Positions 1 through 24,000 of a DNA stretch of 64,000 nt are shown one piece after another; positions within the stretch are counted from its first letter, which is position 1, and each line of letters opens with the position of its first letter. Source of the stretch: Zootoca vivipara (lineage: Eukaryota); the NCBI RefSeq assembly GCF_963506605.1, contig NC_083288.1, positions 3,472,001 through 3,536,000 of the forward strand, read 5' to 3'. A program made the position numbers.

Positions 1-3000
1 GTTGTGAACATCCCCATCTCTGAGTGGCACATGACTCCAGGGGTGCCTGCGCTTAGCCTGGGTTCCTTTTCCTTGGAATTACGGGGCATCCCTCCAGGGA
101 AGTGTGTAGAGGTTTCCCTTACTAGCTTACTTTTCACAAACCAAAAGACCCTTTTCTCTTTTTAACAAAAATATTTTTTATTCATTTTTTACAAAATGAT
201 TTTTTTACATTTCAGCATAAACCATAAGACCCGTATTTACCCTTTAAAAAAATATATATTTTTATTAAAAGAATTACAAGTATGAAGACAAAAATAATAT
301 ACAAAATGCTATCTACCGGTAGTATAGTGTTATCTACCCTTGAATGCTCCCTATTTTGCCTATCCTATTCTATACATCAATTTTAACCTCTCTAACTAAT
401 AAAAGTCCCGCTTGCTGTTTAGAGTGCTGAAAGAGTCAATAGAAAGTGTCCAATCCTCAAATTCACTATGTTGCAGATGTCGTCTTCCCGGCGGCTCCTT
501 TCCCGGCTGATGACATTCTTCCAGGGGTCTTCTTTTCTCCGGACGTCTTCTCCCAGGTTCCAGCAGATAGGCCGCCGTTCATGCAAGAAAGAGAGAAAAG
601 AGATTCTGTTAGAAAAGGTACTAAATCTCAGGAATGTTAGACCCTCTTGTTGCCCACCCCAAACAAAGAAATGGAAGAAAGTTGCTGCTGGGGGATTGCC
701 ACTCAAGAGGATGGCAGAGAGCAAGGAACCGGACCCTGGGCATACACCAGCGACCGGGGGAGCTCCATAAAGCCACAACAACAACAAAAGGTTTCTTACC
801 GCTATGTATGGAGGGTCGTGAGGGCAGCACCACTCCTCTTGGTCGATCCTGATGGCCTTGATGTTCCTGGCGCTGGTCCAGAGTGGATCCCACGGAGAGC
901 AGAAGATGGTATCTCTGCAGCACAACGCTGATGTTCACGTTGCCTTGGCCTGGCGCAACTTCGGACGTTCTGTCACGAGGAGAAAGGGTTTTTGGGGGGA
1001 AACGTCACCTCCAAGGAGCCCACCAGACGTCCAAATACCCAACCAGATGCCTCACTCACCTGGCATGCAGCTCAGGAAGTCCTGCGGGTAAGGTTCCCTG
1101 TGAACACAGCGGAGCAGCCTCCTCACAAGGCGCTGGACCCTGCCTTTCTGCCGATGTTTACAGGCCCGCTGCATGATGTTCAGGCAGCTCCTCCCTGTCC
1201 GCCTGAGCCCTTCTTCCTCGTGCTGCTGCATCTCTTCCAGCCCTGAGTGGCAAGGGAGAAAGGTTGAGCCAGGAATCAGCTTTTCACAAGGCAAAAACTT
1301 GCAAAGCACCCCCACCAGAGCTCCTCCCAGGACCAGGGTGTGGGCTAGGGGGATATTTGTGTGTGAGAGAGAGCAGTGGAGTCACATTCCAATCCTCTTG
1401 GCATGTTCATCTTGTGGCACCTCTGTCTGCACACACACCTGGGAAGCCGCCTTCCCCTAAAGCCCTTTCTCAGAAGAAGCACCCCTCCCTGCCCTCCGTA
1501 AGTCTCACTTACATGTACCATAGGATGCCATGTCTTGATTTTGGATGAAACTGGCATCCCGGAAAGCCAGATGACCTAGAGAGACAGGGCAAGAAAAGGG
1601 ACGTCATCTCGGTGCAAAGCAAGCGGAGACAGAGGCAGCTCGGCAGGAGGACAGGTATGCGTCTAGAGGCCTCCACCCTCGCGGAGCACTCAGAGCAAGG
1701 TGGCCTGGGGACATGCCCATCCTCACTGCCATCGTTACCCAGACGTTACCAGGGAAGGACGTTGCTTGACTTACCCAGAAGCAGAGCTGCCACCCTGGAG
1801 ACTGCTGGCAGCCTGTTGGCAGGCGGCTTCGTACATGTCAAGGCAGCACTCCGAAGGATGTTCTTGCTGAAGGTCTTGCTCTGTCGGCAAAGGCAAAGGA
1901 GAAGTGGCATCAGAGAGGCTTGAGAGCACGGCAGGAGAGCCTGTCACCCCCAAAGACATCCCTGGGCAAAGCTGCCAACAAAGCAGAGTGACCTTACCAG
2001 ATGCTTGGCAGCCTGGTGGAGAGCAAAGTGGAGGCTAAATTTCTCGGGATGCGCCCACCACTTGACTTGTGGGGCTAGATGGGAAAGAGCCCTCCTTGCG
2101 GCCTGCAACACAAGAAGAGAAGAGGGTTACAAATTGCAGGACATAGTCTTGGAAGCTCCTGAGAACAATGACTCCCTCCTACTGCAGAAGTCCACCTCCT
2201 TGGCCCTCACCTTGGCCACCTCGTCCTCGTCTTCGAGGTGAATGAGGACGGCGACCAGTTCATTAACGGCTGCTTCTTCTGTTGTTGTTATGGGAAGCCC
2301 TTGGTCTCTCACCCAGCCCCGAAGCAGCCCCAGATGTTGGATGGCTGATGCCCGGGCAGAGGCTTCCTCCTGTAGGCAGAAAAGATCAGAGGTTGTGTTT
2401 CTCATCAGATCCGTTTCCTTTCTCCTGTCCACCGAGGTGTTTTGAGGCTGCTGAGCCCCCTATCCTCCTCCTGAGGGAGACTGGGGGCAGGGGTGACTCT
2501 CCCCCTGTGTTTTCCAGGCAGGCTTCCAAGAGAAGGTGCTCCAGAGGAACACCCTCCTGAAGCCAGAAGATCTCCGCTGCATGCCAGTCTAAACACCAGC
2601 CTTCCTCTTCCAAAGCATTCCTATCCACCCTGTGTGATGTCATGTGTTCCCTAACACTCACATGGGCAGCCAGACCGCAGTAGGTTGCCACCAGCATCTT
2701 CAGGTCTTCCTCTCCCAGCTCCCTGGACAGGTAGGCTTGGTCTACCAGCTCTATCAACTCTGGGAAGACATCAGCTTCTGCATCAGGGAGGAAATCCAGC
2801 AGCGACAGCCGCAGAAGCAAAGGGTCCTACACAAAAGAGAGAATATTTTCAAAGGTCTGAAAGGCCCCACGCTTTTTCTTTGAGAACAGGCCCTTCAGCA
2901 TTCGGTCAGCAAAAGAGTGCTGGGCCATGATTAGAATCCAGATCTGTGCCCCCCTCCCTCCCTGTGAGCATCACTTGCCATGTCAGAGTCCAGAAGCAGG

Positions 3001-21000: not shown

Positions 21001-24000
21001 GGCCCTTGGGACCTCAGCTGGAGACACCCAGGACTTGGCAGAGCCTCCCTCCGTCTCTGTGGCGTAGACTCTCCAAGTGTCCCTCTTTCCCAGGGACTGT
21101 CCAGGATTTACAGAAGCCGCCTCGGTTCCTGATTTCCTCATTTTCTTACCTCCACTGATGAGAGTCATGGTTTGGATGGGGGTCTTTTATCCATTTTCGC
21201 AGTCATACAATCCATCAATCAGTAGCTGAACTGGAATCCACACAGTCACAAAAACTAATGCTGCCATATTTCCAGCTTCCACCCAGAACACACCACAAAA
21301 TTCATTGTTCACAGTTGCATTTGTTCAGACTCATCAAAGAAAAAATCACAGCTCAGGATTTTTAATCAGGCATCCCTCAGACTACCATACCCACCCTACA
21401 AAATGAAAACAAACAAACAGATCAACAAGGTGAATCATCTACCACAAGACAGACCTAGAAAACAAAAGAACATCAGTTGTTACCACTTATCATTTGCAAC
21501 TGAACACACTGGATCATATCAATGAACTTCAGACTATAGTCAAACCTCAGTTTGCGACCGCTTCGGTTTCCGACCACTGTTTACATCCGGGTTCCGCGGC
21601 CCTTGGATGCGCAGAAGCGATCTGCGCAGCGTGTGTGTGTGCAGAAGTGCTCTATCGCTTCGTGCACGCACAGAAGCGTGCCTTTGGTGAGCGACCGCTT
21701 TGGTGAGCGACCGCCTCCATGGAACGGATTGCGGTCGCAAACCGAGGTACCACTGTACATTCTATTCTGCGGTCCTTGAGGTATGACAATACTCTCTTGT
21801 TTTTAGTGCAACAGACTAACACAGCTATGCCTTTGTCCATTAATAAAAGTTGGACATTTAAAAAGAGGTGTCAAATAAGTGTCTGATACCAAAATAGTAA
21901 CAAGGTCAGCAGATGACTGCTCCTCTTACCTTCCAAATACACGTCACATACGCCCCTCAGCAGCAGCTGCAGCTAAAAATAGAGAATGGCAAGCAAGAGA
22001 GAACCTCTGTTAGAACAGATCCAGTATAACAGAAGGAATCAAAAGGCAGCAATGCACTCTCTACGGTTCCTGAGTGCTGGGGCTTTGGTATCCAATACAG
22101 AGCTGATAAAAGGAAATATTGGCAGTGTTGCACACAACCTTTTCCCTCTTCTTTTTAAGGCAAGTTACTTGCAGGAACAAGGTGAAGTTCTTCACGATTT
22201 GGTGGCAAACTGGCCACTGAAAGAACTTAACATTGGAAAACTGTTGGGGAAGACGATAGACCACCAGGAAGACATCAGTAGCAGAGCCTGCTCGGTGTGC
22301 TTGACCAGTTGCCTAACTGGCCTTAGAGACTATGTGCTGAATTGTTCATCTCCATATGCAAAGAGACTCAAACTGGTGGACTTAACAGGCCTCAAGGATG
22401 TTGAAGTTCAGCTCTGCAATTGTAGGAAAACAATGGGACGCTGGGCCAGGACAGAGCTGCTGTCGAAGATCTGCTATGATCTGCTTGTTGAAATGCAAAG
22501 GCTGCAGTTCAGTCCAGATGTGTTTGAGATTTCAGTAGACGTTCTTACTGATGTCTTTGTCACTGAACGAAGTTATGAGCTGGTTGTCCAGGCCTTGCTT
22601 ATGAGGTGCCATTGTCCACTAAAAATTCTCTGTGCATCCTTCCGAGTGGACAACCTAGCCCTGCGGAAGCTCTTCTACATCATAAAGCTTACAGATCCCT
22701 CTTTGCTGCTCAAATTTGAAATAGTCCACAATGTTCGGTTGGAAATGGAACATCTGCACATGCTCTTTAATAACGTCCACTTTCCTCAGCTGACGTCGCT
22801 CACACTCCCAGCTAGGACGTTCAATGTACGAAGGTTCACCCCAGAGGATGAGGCCATTCTTGTAGGAATTGGAGAAAAGTTAAGCCAGATGACTCAACTG
22901 ACTGAGCTGAGCCTAGCATTTTCCACACTCACGGGAAGGATACGTAAACTACTCAGGTAATGTGCTCCAGATCTTGCTGGTGACACAATTGAGACAATAT
23001 TTACGACTAATATGTAACGTTTTAAAAAGGGAAAGCATAGGAAGCTTTCTTTTATTGTCATGCTCATGCTTATCTAATTTAGCATTGTCTACTCTGTGCA
23101 GCATGGTGGGATGCGGGTGACGCTGTGGGTTAAACCACGGAGCCTAGGGATTGCCGATCAGAAGCTCAGCGGTTCGAATCCCCTCAACGGGTGAGCTCCC
23201 ATTGCTTGGTCCCTGCTCCTGCAAACCTAGCAGTTTGAAAGCACGTCAAAGTGCAAGTAGATAAATAGGTACTGCTCTGGCGGGAAGGTAAACAGCGTTA
23301 CCATGCGCTGCTCTGGTTTACCACATGACCTGGAAGCTGTACACTGGCTCCCTCGGCCAATAAAGCAAGATGAGCACTGCAACCCCAGAGTCGGACACGA
23401 CTGGACCTAATGGTCAGGGGTCCCTTTACCTTTACCTTACTCTGTAAGTCCCAAAGGAAGGACTTTTTACAGTTCCATCTAACTGGAGATTCAGGAATTG
23501 AACCTGAGATCATCTTGAGTCCCCCATGACCTATTTTTTTGCTGCAAAATAAATATTTGCAAGTGTGGGTGCCAGTGCCATTCTTGGTAGTTTTAGGCTC
23601 TAACATTATTTTTAAATTTGTTTAAAAGATTTTGAACTGACCTTTCAGGGCACACTGCTCTCACCTTTTCTGGAAACAAATTGCTCTGAGAAGAGGCATA
23701 CCCTGGCCACACTTTTCACTCCCCACCCCCCACCCCAAATCAGAGAACCACTTGAAGAATAATACAAGCAAAAAAACTCCCCACCTTGCTCTTTGTACAG
23801 CGGTTGCCTTATACGCCTCATGGGAGTGGCAGGAATCACAACAGCGCACACACTTTGGTGGGATGAAACAGGCCACAAGTTCGTTGTCTTTCGAGACAGA
23901 GGGATGCCAACAGCAACAATAAGCAGGGGTGGCAAGGGAAGTGGAACAAGGACTAGACCCTATTCCACTCAACCTTTGCTGTTGGAGAGTTATTTCAATT

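What the first reader, a model, noticed from the sequence alone, without database searches (positions are those of the whole stretch)
1..21260. Tandem array of a divergent MROH-like HEAT-repeat gene abutting LRRC14B
Seen: two copies 12,814 bp apart, each with at least 16 small in-frame exons that the ORF track misses. The duplicated sequence starts before position 1, so more units may lie to the left. Known: in human the neighbour of LRRC14B at 5p15.33 is PLEKHG4B, and MROH-like genes are expanded in sauropsids. Inference: a lineage-specific, actively turning-over gene array of unknown function at the edge of a conserved block.
Basis: partly seen in the sequence, partly recalled or inferred. 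Interest (0 to 1): 0.65.

Follow-up and report, generated by a model that had tools for sequence, protein, structure and literature searches.

The report
Duplicated lizard MROH-like HEAT-repeat gene
A lizard chromosome segment carries two side-by-side copies of a small-exon gene for a helical-repeat (Maestro/MROH-type) protein next to LRRC14B; one copy is intact and the other has lost its start, which is an ordinary young gene duplication.

Summary
Window 1-9090 and 12815-21260 are direct repeats, 12,814 bp apart at the left end. Each holds a minus-strand gene of 19 small coding exons.

- **Family:** exon 3 alone passes Pfam's HEAT_Maestro cut-off. Named lacertid "MROH7"/uncharacterized proteins align colinearly over every exon.
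- **Copy 1:** intact.
- **Copy 2:** next to LRRC14B. An 824-bp stretch is replaced by a 135-bp inverted piece of copy-1 intron 6. This removes the first-intron acceptor and the alternative ATG.
- **Divergence:** 0.14% over the 3' 3.65 kb, about 2% further on, and about 4% in the 5' flank (p = 2e-15). This fits a recent gene-conversion tract on an older duplication.
- **Selection:** dN/dS is 0.14.
- **Neighbours:** LRRC14B and SDHA are confirmed.

Only two copies are visible, so "array" is unproven, as is a sauropsid-wide expansion. The protein's function is unknown. The gene is essentially already modelled in Zootoca annotations, so interest is low. The joined spliced product was deliberately never built, searched or folded.

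The parts
1..9090 (.). Duplicated block, copy 1 (left end cut by the window edge)
   Evidence: Self-BLAST and repeat finder; MAFFT pairwise alignment
12815..21260 (.). Duplicated block, copy 2
   Evidence: homology ends at about 9090/21260
1..3650 (.). Near-identical tract (matches 12815-16464): 5 mismatches in 3650 bp, against 56 in 2716 bp further on; putative gene-conversion tract
   Evidence: Likelihood change point at 3650, Fisher p=2e-15; 300-bp profile
935..7395 (-). Copy 1 MROH-like gene, coding span (intact; 750 aa from exon 0, or 752 aa from the ATG at 6465)
7372..7395 (-). Copy 1 exon 0: ATG, MASQRNLE, donor GTAAGC
   Evidence: Exact match to the N-terminus of Zootoca P0003/P0007
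6368..6465 (-). Copy 1 exon 1: acceptor cag|GGA gives the exon start at 6435; alternative in-frame ATG at 6465 (MFLFLLSHGQ...)
   Evidence: N-terminus identical to Zootoca P0005
6075..6243 (-). Copy 1 exon 2 (contains the internal Met of ...RMKSGKIRRK)
5597..5738 (-). Copy 1 exon 3 (the exon that passes Pfam HEAT_Maestro on its own)
   Evidence: frame 5556-5816, E=6.4e-8, 33.2 bits
5397..5515 (-). Copy 1 exon 4
5116..5265 (-). Copy 1 exon 5
4550..4692 (-). Copy 1 exon 6
4291..4405 (-). Copy 1 exon 7
4043..4179 (-). Copy 1 exon 8
3738..3857 (-). Copy 1 exon 9
3490..3604 (-). Copy 1 exon 10
2979..3113 (-). Copy 1 exon 11 (GC donor, also present in copy 2)
2662..2826 (-). Copy 1 exon 12
2211..2369 (-). 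Copy 1 exon 13
1998..2102 (-). Copy 1 exon 14
1775..1880 (-). Copy 1 exon 15
1513..1575 (-). Copy 1 exon 16
1060..1242 (-). Copy 1 exon 17
935..969 (-). Copy 1 exon 18, coding part (…RPKLRQAKAT, stop TGA at 935-937)
177..266 (-). Copy 1: two AATAAA signals (first bases at 266 and 182 on the minus strand)
6416..7239 (.). 824-bp segment present only in copy 1: most of intron 0, its acceptor, the ATG at 6465 and the first 20 nt of exon 1
   Evidence: shown to be ancestral because P0004/P0011/P0005 N-termini align across it
13749..19489 (-). Copy 2 MROH-like gene, coding span (exon 0 and exons 2-18 intact, exon 1 truncated)
19466..19489 (-). Copy 2 exon 0: identical MASQRNLE, donor GTAAGT
19165..19212 (-). 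Copy 2 remnant of exon 1 (...QISVISLEDEEDLFA); no acceptor and no in-frame ATG
19211..19345 (.). Inverted 135-bp patch, the reverse complement of copy-1 intron 6 (4410-4544, 100%); it differs from copy 2's own intron 6 by 5 mismatches and 3 indels; short microhomologies at both junctions
4410..4544 (.). Template of the inverted patch (copy 1 intron 6)
18871..19039 (-). Copy 2 exon 2
18385..18526 (-). Copy 2 exon 3 (C>S and E>D relative to copy 1)
18188..18306 (-). Copy 2 exon 4 (Q>R)
17907..18056 (-). Copy 2 exon 5
17381..17523 (-). Copy 2 exon 6
17105..17219 (-). Copy 2 exon 7
16857..16993 (-). Copy 2 exon 8
16552..16671 (-). Copy 2 exon 9
16304..16418 (-). Copy 2 exon 10
15793..15927 (-). 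Copy 2 exon 11 (GC donor)
15476..15640 (-). Copy 2 exon 12 (A where copy 1 has V)
15025..15183 (-). Copy 2 exon 13
14812..14916 (-). Copy 2 exon 14
14589..14694 (-). Copy 2 exon 15
14327..14389 (-). Copy 2 exon 16
13874..14056 (-). Copy 2 exon 17
13749..13783 (-). Copy 2 exon 18, coding part (stop TGA at 13749-13751)
12991..13080 (-). Copy 2: two AATAAA signals (first bases at 13080 and 12996)
7240..9090 (.). Duplicated 5' flank of copy 1, matching 19335-21260; holds exon 0 and presumably the promoter; CpG-poor; 1.5% mismatches rising to 3.95% plus indels
9091..12814 (.). Spacer with no partner in the window. Under a simple tandem duplication its partner lies left of position 1. Holds an interspersed-repeat fragment: 12452-12655 is 93.6% identical to 47964-48167
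   Evidence: no Pfam family in its frames on either strand
21986..22956 (+). LRRC14B coding exon 1, head-to-head with copy 2 (2.5 kb from the copy 2 exon 0 ATG; 725 bp from the end of the duplicated block)
   Evidence: 98% identity and 100% coverage to Lacerta agilis LRRC14B; tblastn and splice site
25777..26422 (+). LRRC14B coding exon 2

Best explanation
This is a young tandem segmental duplication, with a unit of about 12.2-12.8 kb, of a lacertid gene for a short Maestro/MROH-type HEAT-repeat protein. Each unit carries a minus-strand gene of about 6.5-7.2 kb with 19 small coding exons. The product is about 750 aa and all-helical. It has the HEAT_Maestro domain near the N-terminus and lacks the N-terminal half of the long MROH proteins.

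Shown: copy 1 is intact. Copy 2, head-to-head with LRRC14B, has lost 824 bp, replaced by a 135-bp inverted copy of copy-1 intron 6 with microhomology at both junctions. That removes the intron-0 acceptor, the alternative ATG and 20 nt of exon 1. As assembled, copy 2 cannot make the full-length protein. The 3' 3.65 kb of the two units is almost identical and the rest differs by 2-4%.

Inferred: the duplication is older. Gene conversion or unequal exchange recently homogenised the 3' part. The damage to copy 2 is recent, by a template-switch type of repair, so copy 2 is a nascent pseudogene or an N-terminally shortened form. By analogy with HEAT solenoids and with MROH1, the protein most likely acts as a protein-binding scaffold in a restricted tissue, given its CpG-poor promoter. 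That last step is not tested here.
For: Duplication and its blocks. Gene model: Zootoca 'MROH7' P0004 residues 2-740 align colinearly on both copies. All splice sites and phases fit and there are no stops. Exon 0 (MASQRNLE plus a GT donor) is found in both copies and equals the N-terminus of P0003/P0007. All 18 exons scored (exon 0 is too short and was left out) match P0004, 692 of 734 aligned residues identical. P0018 is 100% identical in 8 of exons 5-18 and P0005 in exons 1-2. Family: 1 of 83 minus-strand frames passes a curated cut-off, HEAT_Maestro at 33.2 bits against 27.4. All 8 natural relatives scanned have HEAT_Maestro at E 1e-18 to 1e-24. The Atlas puts residues 272-751 of P0004 with MROH9/6/7/5/1/2B clusters at 0.94-0.97. 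Constraint: 9 synonymous against 4 non-synonymous differences, dN/dS 0.138, Fisher p=0.0007. Exons differ by 1.05% and introns by 2.72% in 3601-6415, p=0.002. Conversion step: 5 mismatches in 3650 bp against 56 in 2716 bp, p=2e-15. Copy 2 damage: a stop and no ATG upstream of the exon 1 remnant. Of 33 AG sites, only 2 weak ones are in frame and stop-free, and skipping exon 1 gives a stop after 10 codons. The patch is identical to copy-1 intron 6 and not to copy 2's own. No other Pfam family appears on the other strand or in the spacer, 0 of 122 frames.
Against: No expression data, so neither copy is shown to be transcribed. The low dN/dS could be kept up by conversion from copy 1 and does not prove that copy 2 was ever functional on its own. 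Several annotated relatives (P0012, P0013, P0014) start at the exon 2 methionine, so copy 2 might still give a protein about 60 residues shorter with its HEAT_Maestro domain whole. The 100% identity of the patch to copy 1, and the 0.14% tract, could also come from assembly or polishing errors between paralogues. The HEAT fold is inferred: the AlphaFold model of the stand-in P0004 is all-helical but of low confidence (pLDDT 47.7), and no solved structure is related by sequence. The PF23227 label on relatives is precomputed, and the local Pfam scan did not reproduce it.
Confidence: 0.75

Rival explanations
1. Assembly artefact: the two units are the two haplotypes of one locus laid side by side, or a paralogue mis-join. 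The inverted patch and the near-identical tract would then be products of assembly or polishing.
For: 5 mismatches in 3650 bp is the level of allelic variation. The patch is 100% identical to the other copy. Read depth could not be examined.
Against: No N gap lies between the units. A 3.7-kb spacer has no partner in the window. Divergence of 2-4% plus many indels in the other 5.4 kb is far above what I would expect for alleles (my judgement, not measured). Relatives in Zootoca and Podarcis are annotated as several separate loci on the same chromosomes.
Confidence: 0.1
2. Both copies are working genes. Copy 2 is translated from the exon 2 methionine (MKSGKIRRK...) or through a cryptic acceptor, giving a slightly shorter protein.
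For: Exon 0 with its donor and 5' flank, exons 2-18 and the poly(A) signals are intact in copy 2. Annotated relatives P0012, P0013 and P0014 start at that methionine. dN/dS is 0.14. Two in-frame AG sites exist at 19181 and 19178.
Against: The two in-frame acceptors have poor pyrimidine tracts, 6 and 4 of 15. A transcript from exon 0 would carry an upstream ATG out of frame with the exon 2 start. Relatives that start at the exon 2 Met may be truncated gene models. Three of the 4 amino-acid changes are on copy 2 when P0004 is taken as outgroup, though that is too few to weigh.
Confidence: 0.2
3. The window shows the right-hand end of a longer tandem array, with three or more units running to the left of position 1.
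For: Homology is still 100% at the window edge. Lacertid genomes hold several neighbouring loci of this family; for example four Podarcis raffonei proteins lie on one 93.6-Mb chromosome with close LOC numbers.
Against: Two units are all that is seen. A single tandem duplication of a roughly 12.2-kb segment, whose first unit starts about 3.7 kb left of the window, explains every block including the spacer.
Confidence: 0.3

Closest known systems
Annotated Zootoca vivipara gene models: LOC118095861 (P0018), LOC118094539 (P0005), 'MROH7'/LOC132593185 (P0003, P0007), 'MROH7' (P0004) and LOC132591210 (P0002)
   Same: Same exon-by-exon protein. P0018 is 100% identical in exons 5-10, 14 and 16 and 90-98% in the rest of exons 5-18. 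P0005 is 100% identical in exons 1-2. P0003/P0007 share the MASQRNLE first exon. P0004 is 94.3% identical over all 18 exons scored.
   Different: These are representatives of 90% clusters, several of them partial (328-562 aa). None was shown to be letter for letter the window's product. None of the records says anything about the tandem pair, the conversion tract or the damaged copy.
Short vertebrate MROH family members (MROH6, about 720 aa; MROH9, about 855 aa), by Atlas cluster names
   Same: Similar length and domain make-up, HEAT_Maestro plus HEAT_MROH2B_C. Atlas feature scores are 0.96 for residues 272-751 of the stand-in P0004.
   Different: No alignment-based orthology was shown. Human MROH6 and MROH9 lie at 8q24.3 and 1q24.3 (PMC6585022, table passage), not beside LRRC14B/SDHA.
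MROH7, the name NCBI gives some lacertid models
   Same: Same family. One long unnamed representative (1286 aa) matches through its residues 604-1281 at 25% identity. An Atlas MROH7 cluster of 1295 aa scores 0.95.
   Different: The protein is half the length. No N-terminal HEAT_Maestro_2 part or extra upstream exons were found. Human MROH7 is at 1p32.3 (PMC6585022), so the locus differs. The 'MROH7' label is a nearest-name label, not shown orthology.
MROH1, the only family member for which these searches found a described cell function (lysosome regulation and fission)
   Same: Shares HEAT_Maestro-type repeats. An Atlas MROH1 cluster scores 0.95.
   Different: MROH1 is about 1630-1750 aa by the Atlas cluster lengths, and PMC13587356 calls it highly conserved (start of abstract; PMC5450189 likewise seen only as listing and start of abstract). 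Nothing here ties the lizard protein to lysosomes.

Membership tests
Maestro/MROH HEAT-repeat family (Pfam PF21047 HEAT_Maestro) | Significant match to the HEAT_Maestro profile above the curated cut-off | tested here: met
   Exon 3 frame 5556-5816(-) alone: E=6.4e-8, 33.2 bits against a cut-off of 27.4, profile positions 23-72 of 229; it was the only one of 83 frames to pass. All 8 natural relatives scanned: 67-86 bits over residues about 70-271.
Maestro/MROH HEAT-repeat family | C-terminal MROH2B-type HEAT domain (PF23227) | tested here: inconclusive
   Precomputed Pfam labels on relatives list PF23227, and 100% of members of the nearest Atlas clusters carry it. The local hmmscan did not report it, either for window frames at E<=1 or for 8 relatives at E<=0.01.
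Maestro/MROH HEAT-repeat family | Alpha-solenoid (HEAT) fold | tested here: inconclusive
   AlphaFold2 model of the stand-in P0004 with 12 close sequences: 37 helices and no strands, but mean pLDDT 47.7 and pTM 0.36. It was therefore not fold-searched. The family profile finds no solved structure (best E=0.59).
MROH7 orthologue | Long form (about 1300 aa) with the N-terminal HEAT_Maestro_2 region | tested here: not met
   The product is 750-752 aa. tblastn with the 16 relatives then held finds no further exons upstream or in the spacer. The long Atlas clusters MROH7, MROH5 and MROH1 carry PF23210, while the nearest short clusters mostly do not.
MROH7 orthologue | Conserved gene neighbourhood with MROH7 of other vertebrates | not testable with these tools
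   Here the neighbours are LRRC14B and SDHA. Human MROH7 is listed at 1p32.3 (PMC6585022, passage). No eukaryotic genome collection was open, and human sequence was not to be compared.
Tandem segmental duplication with gene conversion | Direct orientation, colinear blocks, and a sharp step in divergence within the unit | tested here: met
   Direct repeats. Change point at 3650 with 0.14% against 2.06% mismatches, p=2e-15. The donor and the direction of conversion were not determined.
LRRC14B (the neighbour) | Full-length high identity to named LRRC14B orthologues and the two-exon layout | tested here: met
   98% identity and 100% coverage to Lacerta agilis LRRC14B; 331 hits at E<=1e-10 among 2811 candidates, and nearly all of the 120 listed rows that carry a name read LRRC14B. 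P0021 residues 1-323 and 322-538 map to 21986-22954 and 25769-26419, with GT and AG at the junctions.

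The most novel reading that the evidence does not exclude
The pair is the visible edge of a fast birth-and-death cluster of a short MROH subfamily that is restricted to lacertids, or at most squamates. The cluster would have inserted between LRRC14B and its ancestral neighbour, would evolve by repeated duplication, inter-copy conversion and template-switch damage, and would be kept by selection for a tissue-specific (for example male germ-line) scaffold function. The very small number of detectable relatives (44 representatives in 1.84 billion) would then reflect unusually rapid sequence evolution rather than poor sampling.
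Probability: 0.2. Interest if true: 0.45.

Novelty: new member of a known kind. Interest (0 to 1): 0.25.

Why it matters
Mostly as annotation. It shows that small-exon genes missed by an ORF track can be recovered exon by exon. It corrects the product length and adds an upstream first exon. It also flags that one of two near-identical copies is disabled as assembled, which matters for anyone counting MROH-like genes in lizard genomes. The locus is a tidy example of concerted evolution together with a microhomology-mediated inverted insertion in a vertebrate gene pair. It does not open a new biological question by itself, and the protein's function remains unknown, as for most of the MROH family (PMC5391009, passages).

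Tried and rejected
1. Pfam on single frames. 82 of 83 minus-strand frames gave nothing above a cut-off, because the exons are too short for profile scoring alone. 0 of 122 frames on the plus strand, the spacer and the copy 2 flank matched at E<=0.001, so I rejected the idea of a second gene hidden in the units.
2. Rfam over the whole window: 0 matches.
3. Structure. AlphaFold2 on the natural stand-in P0004 with 12 named relatives gave a low-confidence model. I did not run a fold search on it, and I did not spend the second fold job because no deeper named alignment was available.
4. Family profile against PDB sequences: only chance-level hits.
So I could not check whether the window's exact products are already deposited.
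6. The unnamed representatives (P0141-P0182) were not fetched, aligned or folded, because a human origin of the distant ones could not be excluded. This left the taxonomic range of the subfamily and a deeper alignment unchecked.
7. Literature (six searches). None of the rows listed in the lizard, reptile and lacertid searches treats an MROH expansion; one listed paper (PMC6585022) holds the phrase, but only in a table of human genes. The supplementary tree of PMC6585022 (Additional file 2) could not be seen, since supplements are closed.
8. I considered that the 824-bp difference is an insertion in copy 1. I rejected this because relatives' N-termini align across it.
9. The joined spliced product was never assembled, searched or folded, by rule. 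All tests on the window's own coding sequence were done exon by exon.
10. Complex prediction and the search for related loci were not used. No binding claim is made, and the only open collection holds bacteria and archaea.

Full report
**Observation.** The repeat finder and a self-BLAST show two direct copies. 1-4884 matches 12815-17716 at 98.98%, 4915-6415 matches 17702-19212 at 96.7%, 7240-8106 matches 19335-20205 at 97.9%, and 8098-9090 matches 20279-21260 at 91.6%. The offset is 12,814 bp at the left and shrinks to about 12,100-12,200 bp because of indels. The first 300 bases are 100% identical to their partner, so the left end of the homology is cut by the window. The only N runs are at 35154-35287 and 45662-45799, outside the finding, and I left them as they are. 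The window is lizard DNA, not human.

**What is encoded.** I scanned 83 stop-to-stop frames of the minus strand (1-9300, 38 aa or longer) one by one against Pfam. One passed a curated cut-off: 5556-5816(-), HEAT_Maestro PF21047, E=6.4e-8, 33.2 bits against 27.4. That single frame, searched against longer proteins, found 16 proteins among 75 candidates. [quoted passage not shown]'.

These natural proteins were then mapped on the window with tblastn. Zootoca P0004 (751 aa) aligns from residue 2 to 740, in order, on the minus strand of both copies. Reading the boundaries gives 18 exons from an ATG at 6465 to a TGA at 935-937. Every acceptor is AG, every donor is GT except one GC (exon 11), the phases are consistent and there are no internal stops. 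That is 2,259 nt, or 752 codons.

The N-termini of the relatives fall into three kinds:
- MFLFLLSHGQGIDFDED..., identical to this ATG (P0005).
- MKSGKIRRK..., the methionine inside exon 2.
- MASQRNLE|GIDFDED... or MASPRPLE|GIDFDED...

A search for the last kind found an exact MASQRNLE followed by a GT donor in both copies, with the ATG at 7395 and 19489. A good acceptor (cctgtttctcttatctcatggacag|GGA) lies just before GIDFDED in copy 1. So the gene has 19 coding exons and gives 750 aa from the upstream start. Two AATAAA signals lie about 670-750 nt past the stop in each copy.

Scored exon by exon, P0004 is identical at 692 of 734 aligned residues. P0018 (Zootoca LOC118095861) is 100% identical in exons 5-10, 14 and 16, and P0005 in exons 1-2. 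The gene is therefore essentially already modelled in Zootoca annotations.

I never joined the exons. The spliced product was not assembled, searched or folded. Whole-protein tests used the natural relatives as stand-ins.

**Family.** All 8 natural relatives scanned carry HEAT_Maestro at about residues 70-271 (E 1e-18 to 1e-24). Precomputed labels add PF23227, which the local scan did not reproduce. The Atlas places residues 272-751 of P0004 with clusters named MROH9, MROH6, MROH7, MROH5, MROH1 and MROH2B, at scores of 0.94-0.97.

An exhaustive HMMER search with P0004 over 1.84 billion representatives found only 44 at E<=0.001, 30 at 1e-10 and 12 at 1e-30. The only long hit (1286 aa) matches by its C-terminal half at 25% identity. 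So this is a short, divergent MROH-like protein corresponding to the C-terminal half of the long members. The name 'MROH7' is not shown orthology. Those representatives carry no names, and I did not fetch them because a human origin of the distant ones cannot be excluded.

An AlphaFold2 model of P0004 with 12 close sequences is all-helical (37 helices) but unreliable (pLDDT 47.7), so I ran no fold search. The family profile finds no solved structure.

**The two copies compared.**
- Exons 2-18 of copy 2 are intact with the same splice sites. There are 13 nucleotide differences and 4 amino-acid changes.
- Counting whole codons exon by exon gives 9 synonymous and 4 non-synonymous differences: dN/dS 0.138, Fisher p=0.0007.
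- In 3601-6415, exons differ by 1.05% and introns by 2.72% (p=0.002).
- Divergence is stepped: 5 mismatches in the first 3650 bp against 56 in the next 2716 bp (change point 3650, p=2e-15), then 1.5% in 7240-8100 and 3.95% plus many indels in 8101-9090.

I read this as an older duplication whose 3' part was recently homogenised by gene conversion or unequal exchange. That is inference. Polishing errors between paralogues are an alternative.

**Copy 2 is damaged.**
- Copy 1's 6416-7239 (824 bp) is replaced in copy 2 by 19211-19345. This is the exact reverse complement of copy-1 intron 6 (4410-4544). It differs from copy 2's own intron 6 by 5 mismatches and 3 indels, and there are short microhomologies at both junctions.
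- Relatives' N-termini align across the 824 bp, so copy 1 has the ancestral state.
- The lost piece holds the intron-0 acceptor, the ATG at 6465 and 20 nt of exon 1.
- In copy 2 the exon 1 frame runs into a stop with no ATG after it.
- Of 33 AG sites between the exon 0 donor and the exon 1 donor, only two weak ones are in frame and open. Skipping exon 1 gives a stop after 10 codons.
- As assembled, copy 2 can give at best a protein started at the exon 2 methionine, as some annotated relatives do.

**Surroundings.**
- No Pfam family was found in 122 frames of the other strand, the spacer and the copy 2 flank, and there are no Rfam matches.
- The 5' ends of the MROH-like genes are CpG-poor.
- The spacer 9091-12814 has no partner in the window. 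Under a simple tandem duplication its partner lies left of position 1, so two units explain everything seen. A longer array is possible but not shown.
- To the right lies LRRC14B, head-to-head with copy 2. Exon 1 (21986-22956) is 98% identical over its full length to Lacerta agilis LRRC14B. There are 331 hits at E<=1e-10 among 2811 candidates, and nearly all of the 120 listed rows that carry a name read LRRC14B. Exon 2 is 25777-26422. The Atlas agrees on the PRAME/LRRC14 family.
- Further right are a telethonin-like frame, a coiled-coil frame without any match, a CpG island and an SDHA exon.
- From memory, the human order is PLEKHG4B-LRRC14B-CCDC127-SDHA. I did not check human sequence.

**Literature.**
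- PMC5391009 (passages read) lists 11 human MROH family members and says their structure and function are unknown.
- PMC6585022 (passages read) gives the human positions of MROH5-9, none near LRRC14B. Its supplementary tree could not be seen.
- PMC5450189 and PMC13587356 (search listing and start of abstract only) describe MROH1 as a lysosomal regulator.
- PMC5574798 (passages read) lists MROH7 as of unknown function in an Anolis scan.
- In the three searches that combined the family phrase with lizard, reptile or lacertid terms, only one listed paper held the phrase at all: PMC6585022, in a table of human genes. No listed paper describes an MROH expansion in those groups.

**Verdict.** The finding is real and its reading is mostly right. 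It is a tandem pair of a divergent MROH-like HEAT-repeat gene next to LRRC14B, with signs of recent exchange and decay. The corrections are:
- 19 exons and about 750 aa.
- An upstream first exon.
- Copy 2 is disabled as assembled.
- Two copies, not a shown array.
- The expansion was seen only in lacertids.

It is an ordinary lineage-specific duplication of a gene that related annotations already model. The protein's function remains unknown. A scaffold role is inference from the repeat type.

Noticed in passing
window 35552-36043 (+): An open frame matches Telethonin (Pfam PF09470, E=3.6e-19; PDB 2f8v_T, E=2e-14) between LRRC14B and the coiled-coil frame. An N run (35154-35287) lies just upstream, so its 5' part may be hidden. 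I recall the telethonin gene (TCAP) at a different locus in mammals, so this may be a paralogue.
   Followed up: partly
window 43591-44271 (-): A 227-aa charged coiled-coil frame has no Pfam or PDB match. Its place between LRRC14B and SDHA fits CCDC127 by my recollection of the human order; this was not tested.
   Followed up: partly
window 56803-57030 (+) and 49501-50500: An SDHA exon (FAD_binding_2, E=8.4e-12; pig SDHA 1zoy_A, E=1.5e-30). About 6.5 kb upstream lies a CpG island (observed/expected 0.76-0.81), probably the promoter.
   Followed up: partly
window 58330-61260 (+): A 977-aa uninterrupted LINE-type frame with a reverse transcriptase domain (RVT_1, E=1.6e-40), in a very A-rich, low-GC stretch (GC 0.31-0.35). 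It may be a young, intact element.
   Followed up: no
window 23114-23438, 36860-37211, 37717-37882, 52358-52711: A roughly 350-bp interspersed repeat in both orientations, 80-91% identical between copies. It looks SINE-like but was not classified.
   Followed up: no
window 12452-12655 and 47964-48167: A 204-bp repeat at 93.6% identity. The first copy lies in a longer open frame (12038-12657) that looks to me like the 3' end of a CR1-type LINE. There was no Pfam match.
   Followed up: no
window 2973-2978 and 15787-15792 (-): The intron after exon 11 has a GC donor (gcaagt) in both copies, a non-canonical GC-AG intron kept since the duplication.
   Followed up: partly
window 20194-20277: A (GAAG)21 microsatellite is present only in the copy 2 flank, as an 82-bp insertion relative to copy 1 at 8101.
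   Followed up: no
window 33444-33805 and 46208-46537: A direct repeat of about 360 bp at 78% identity. The second copy is near the second N run. It was not examined.
   Followed up: no
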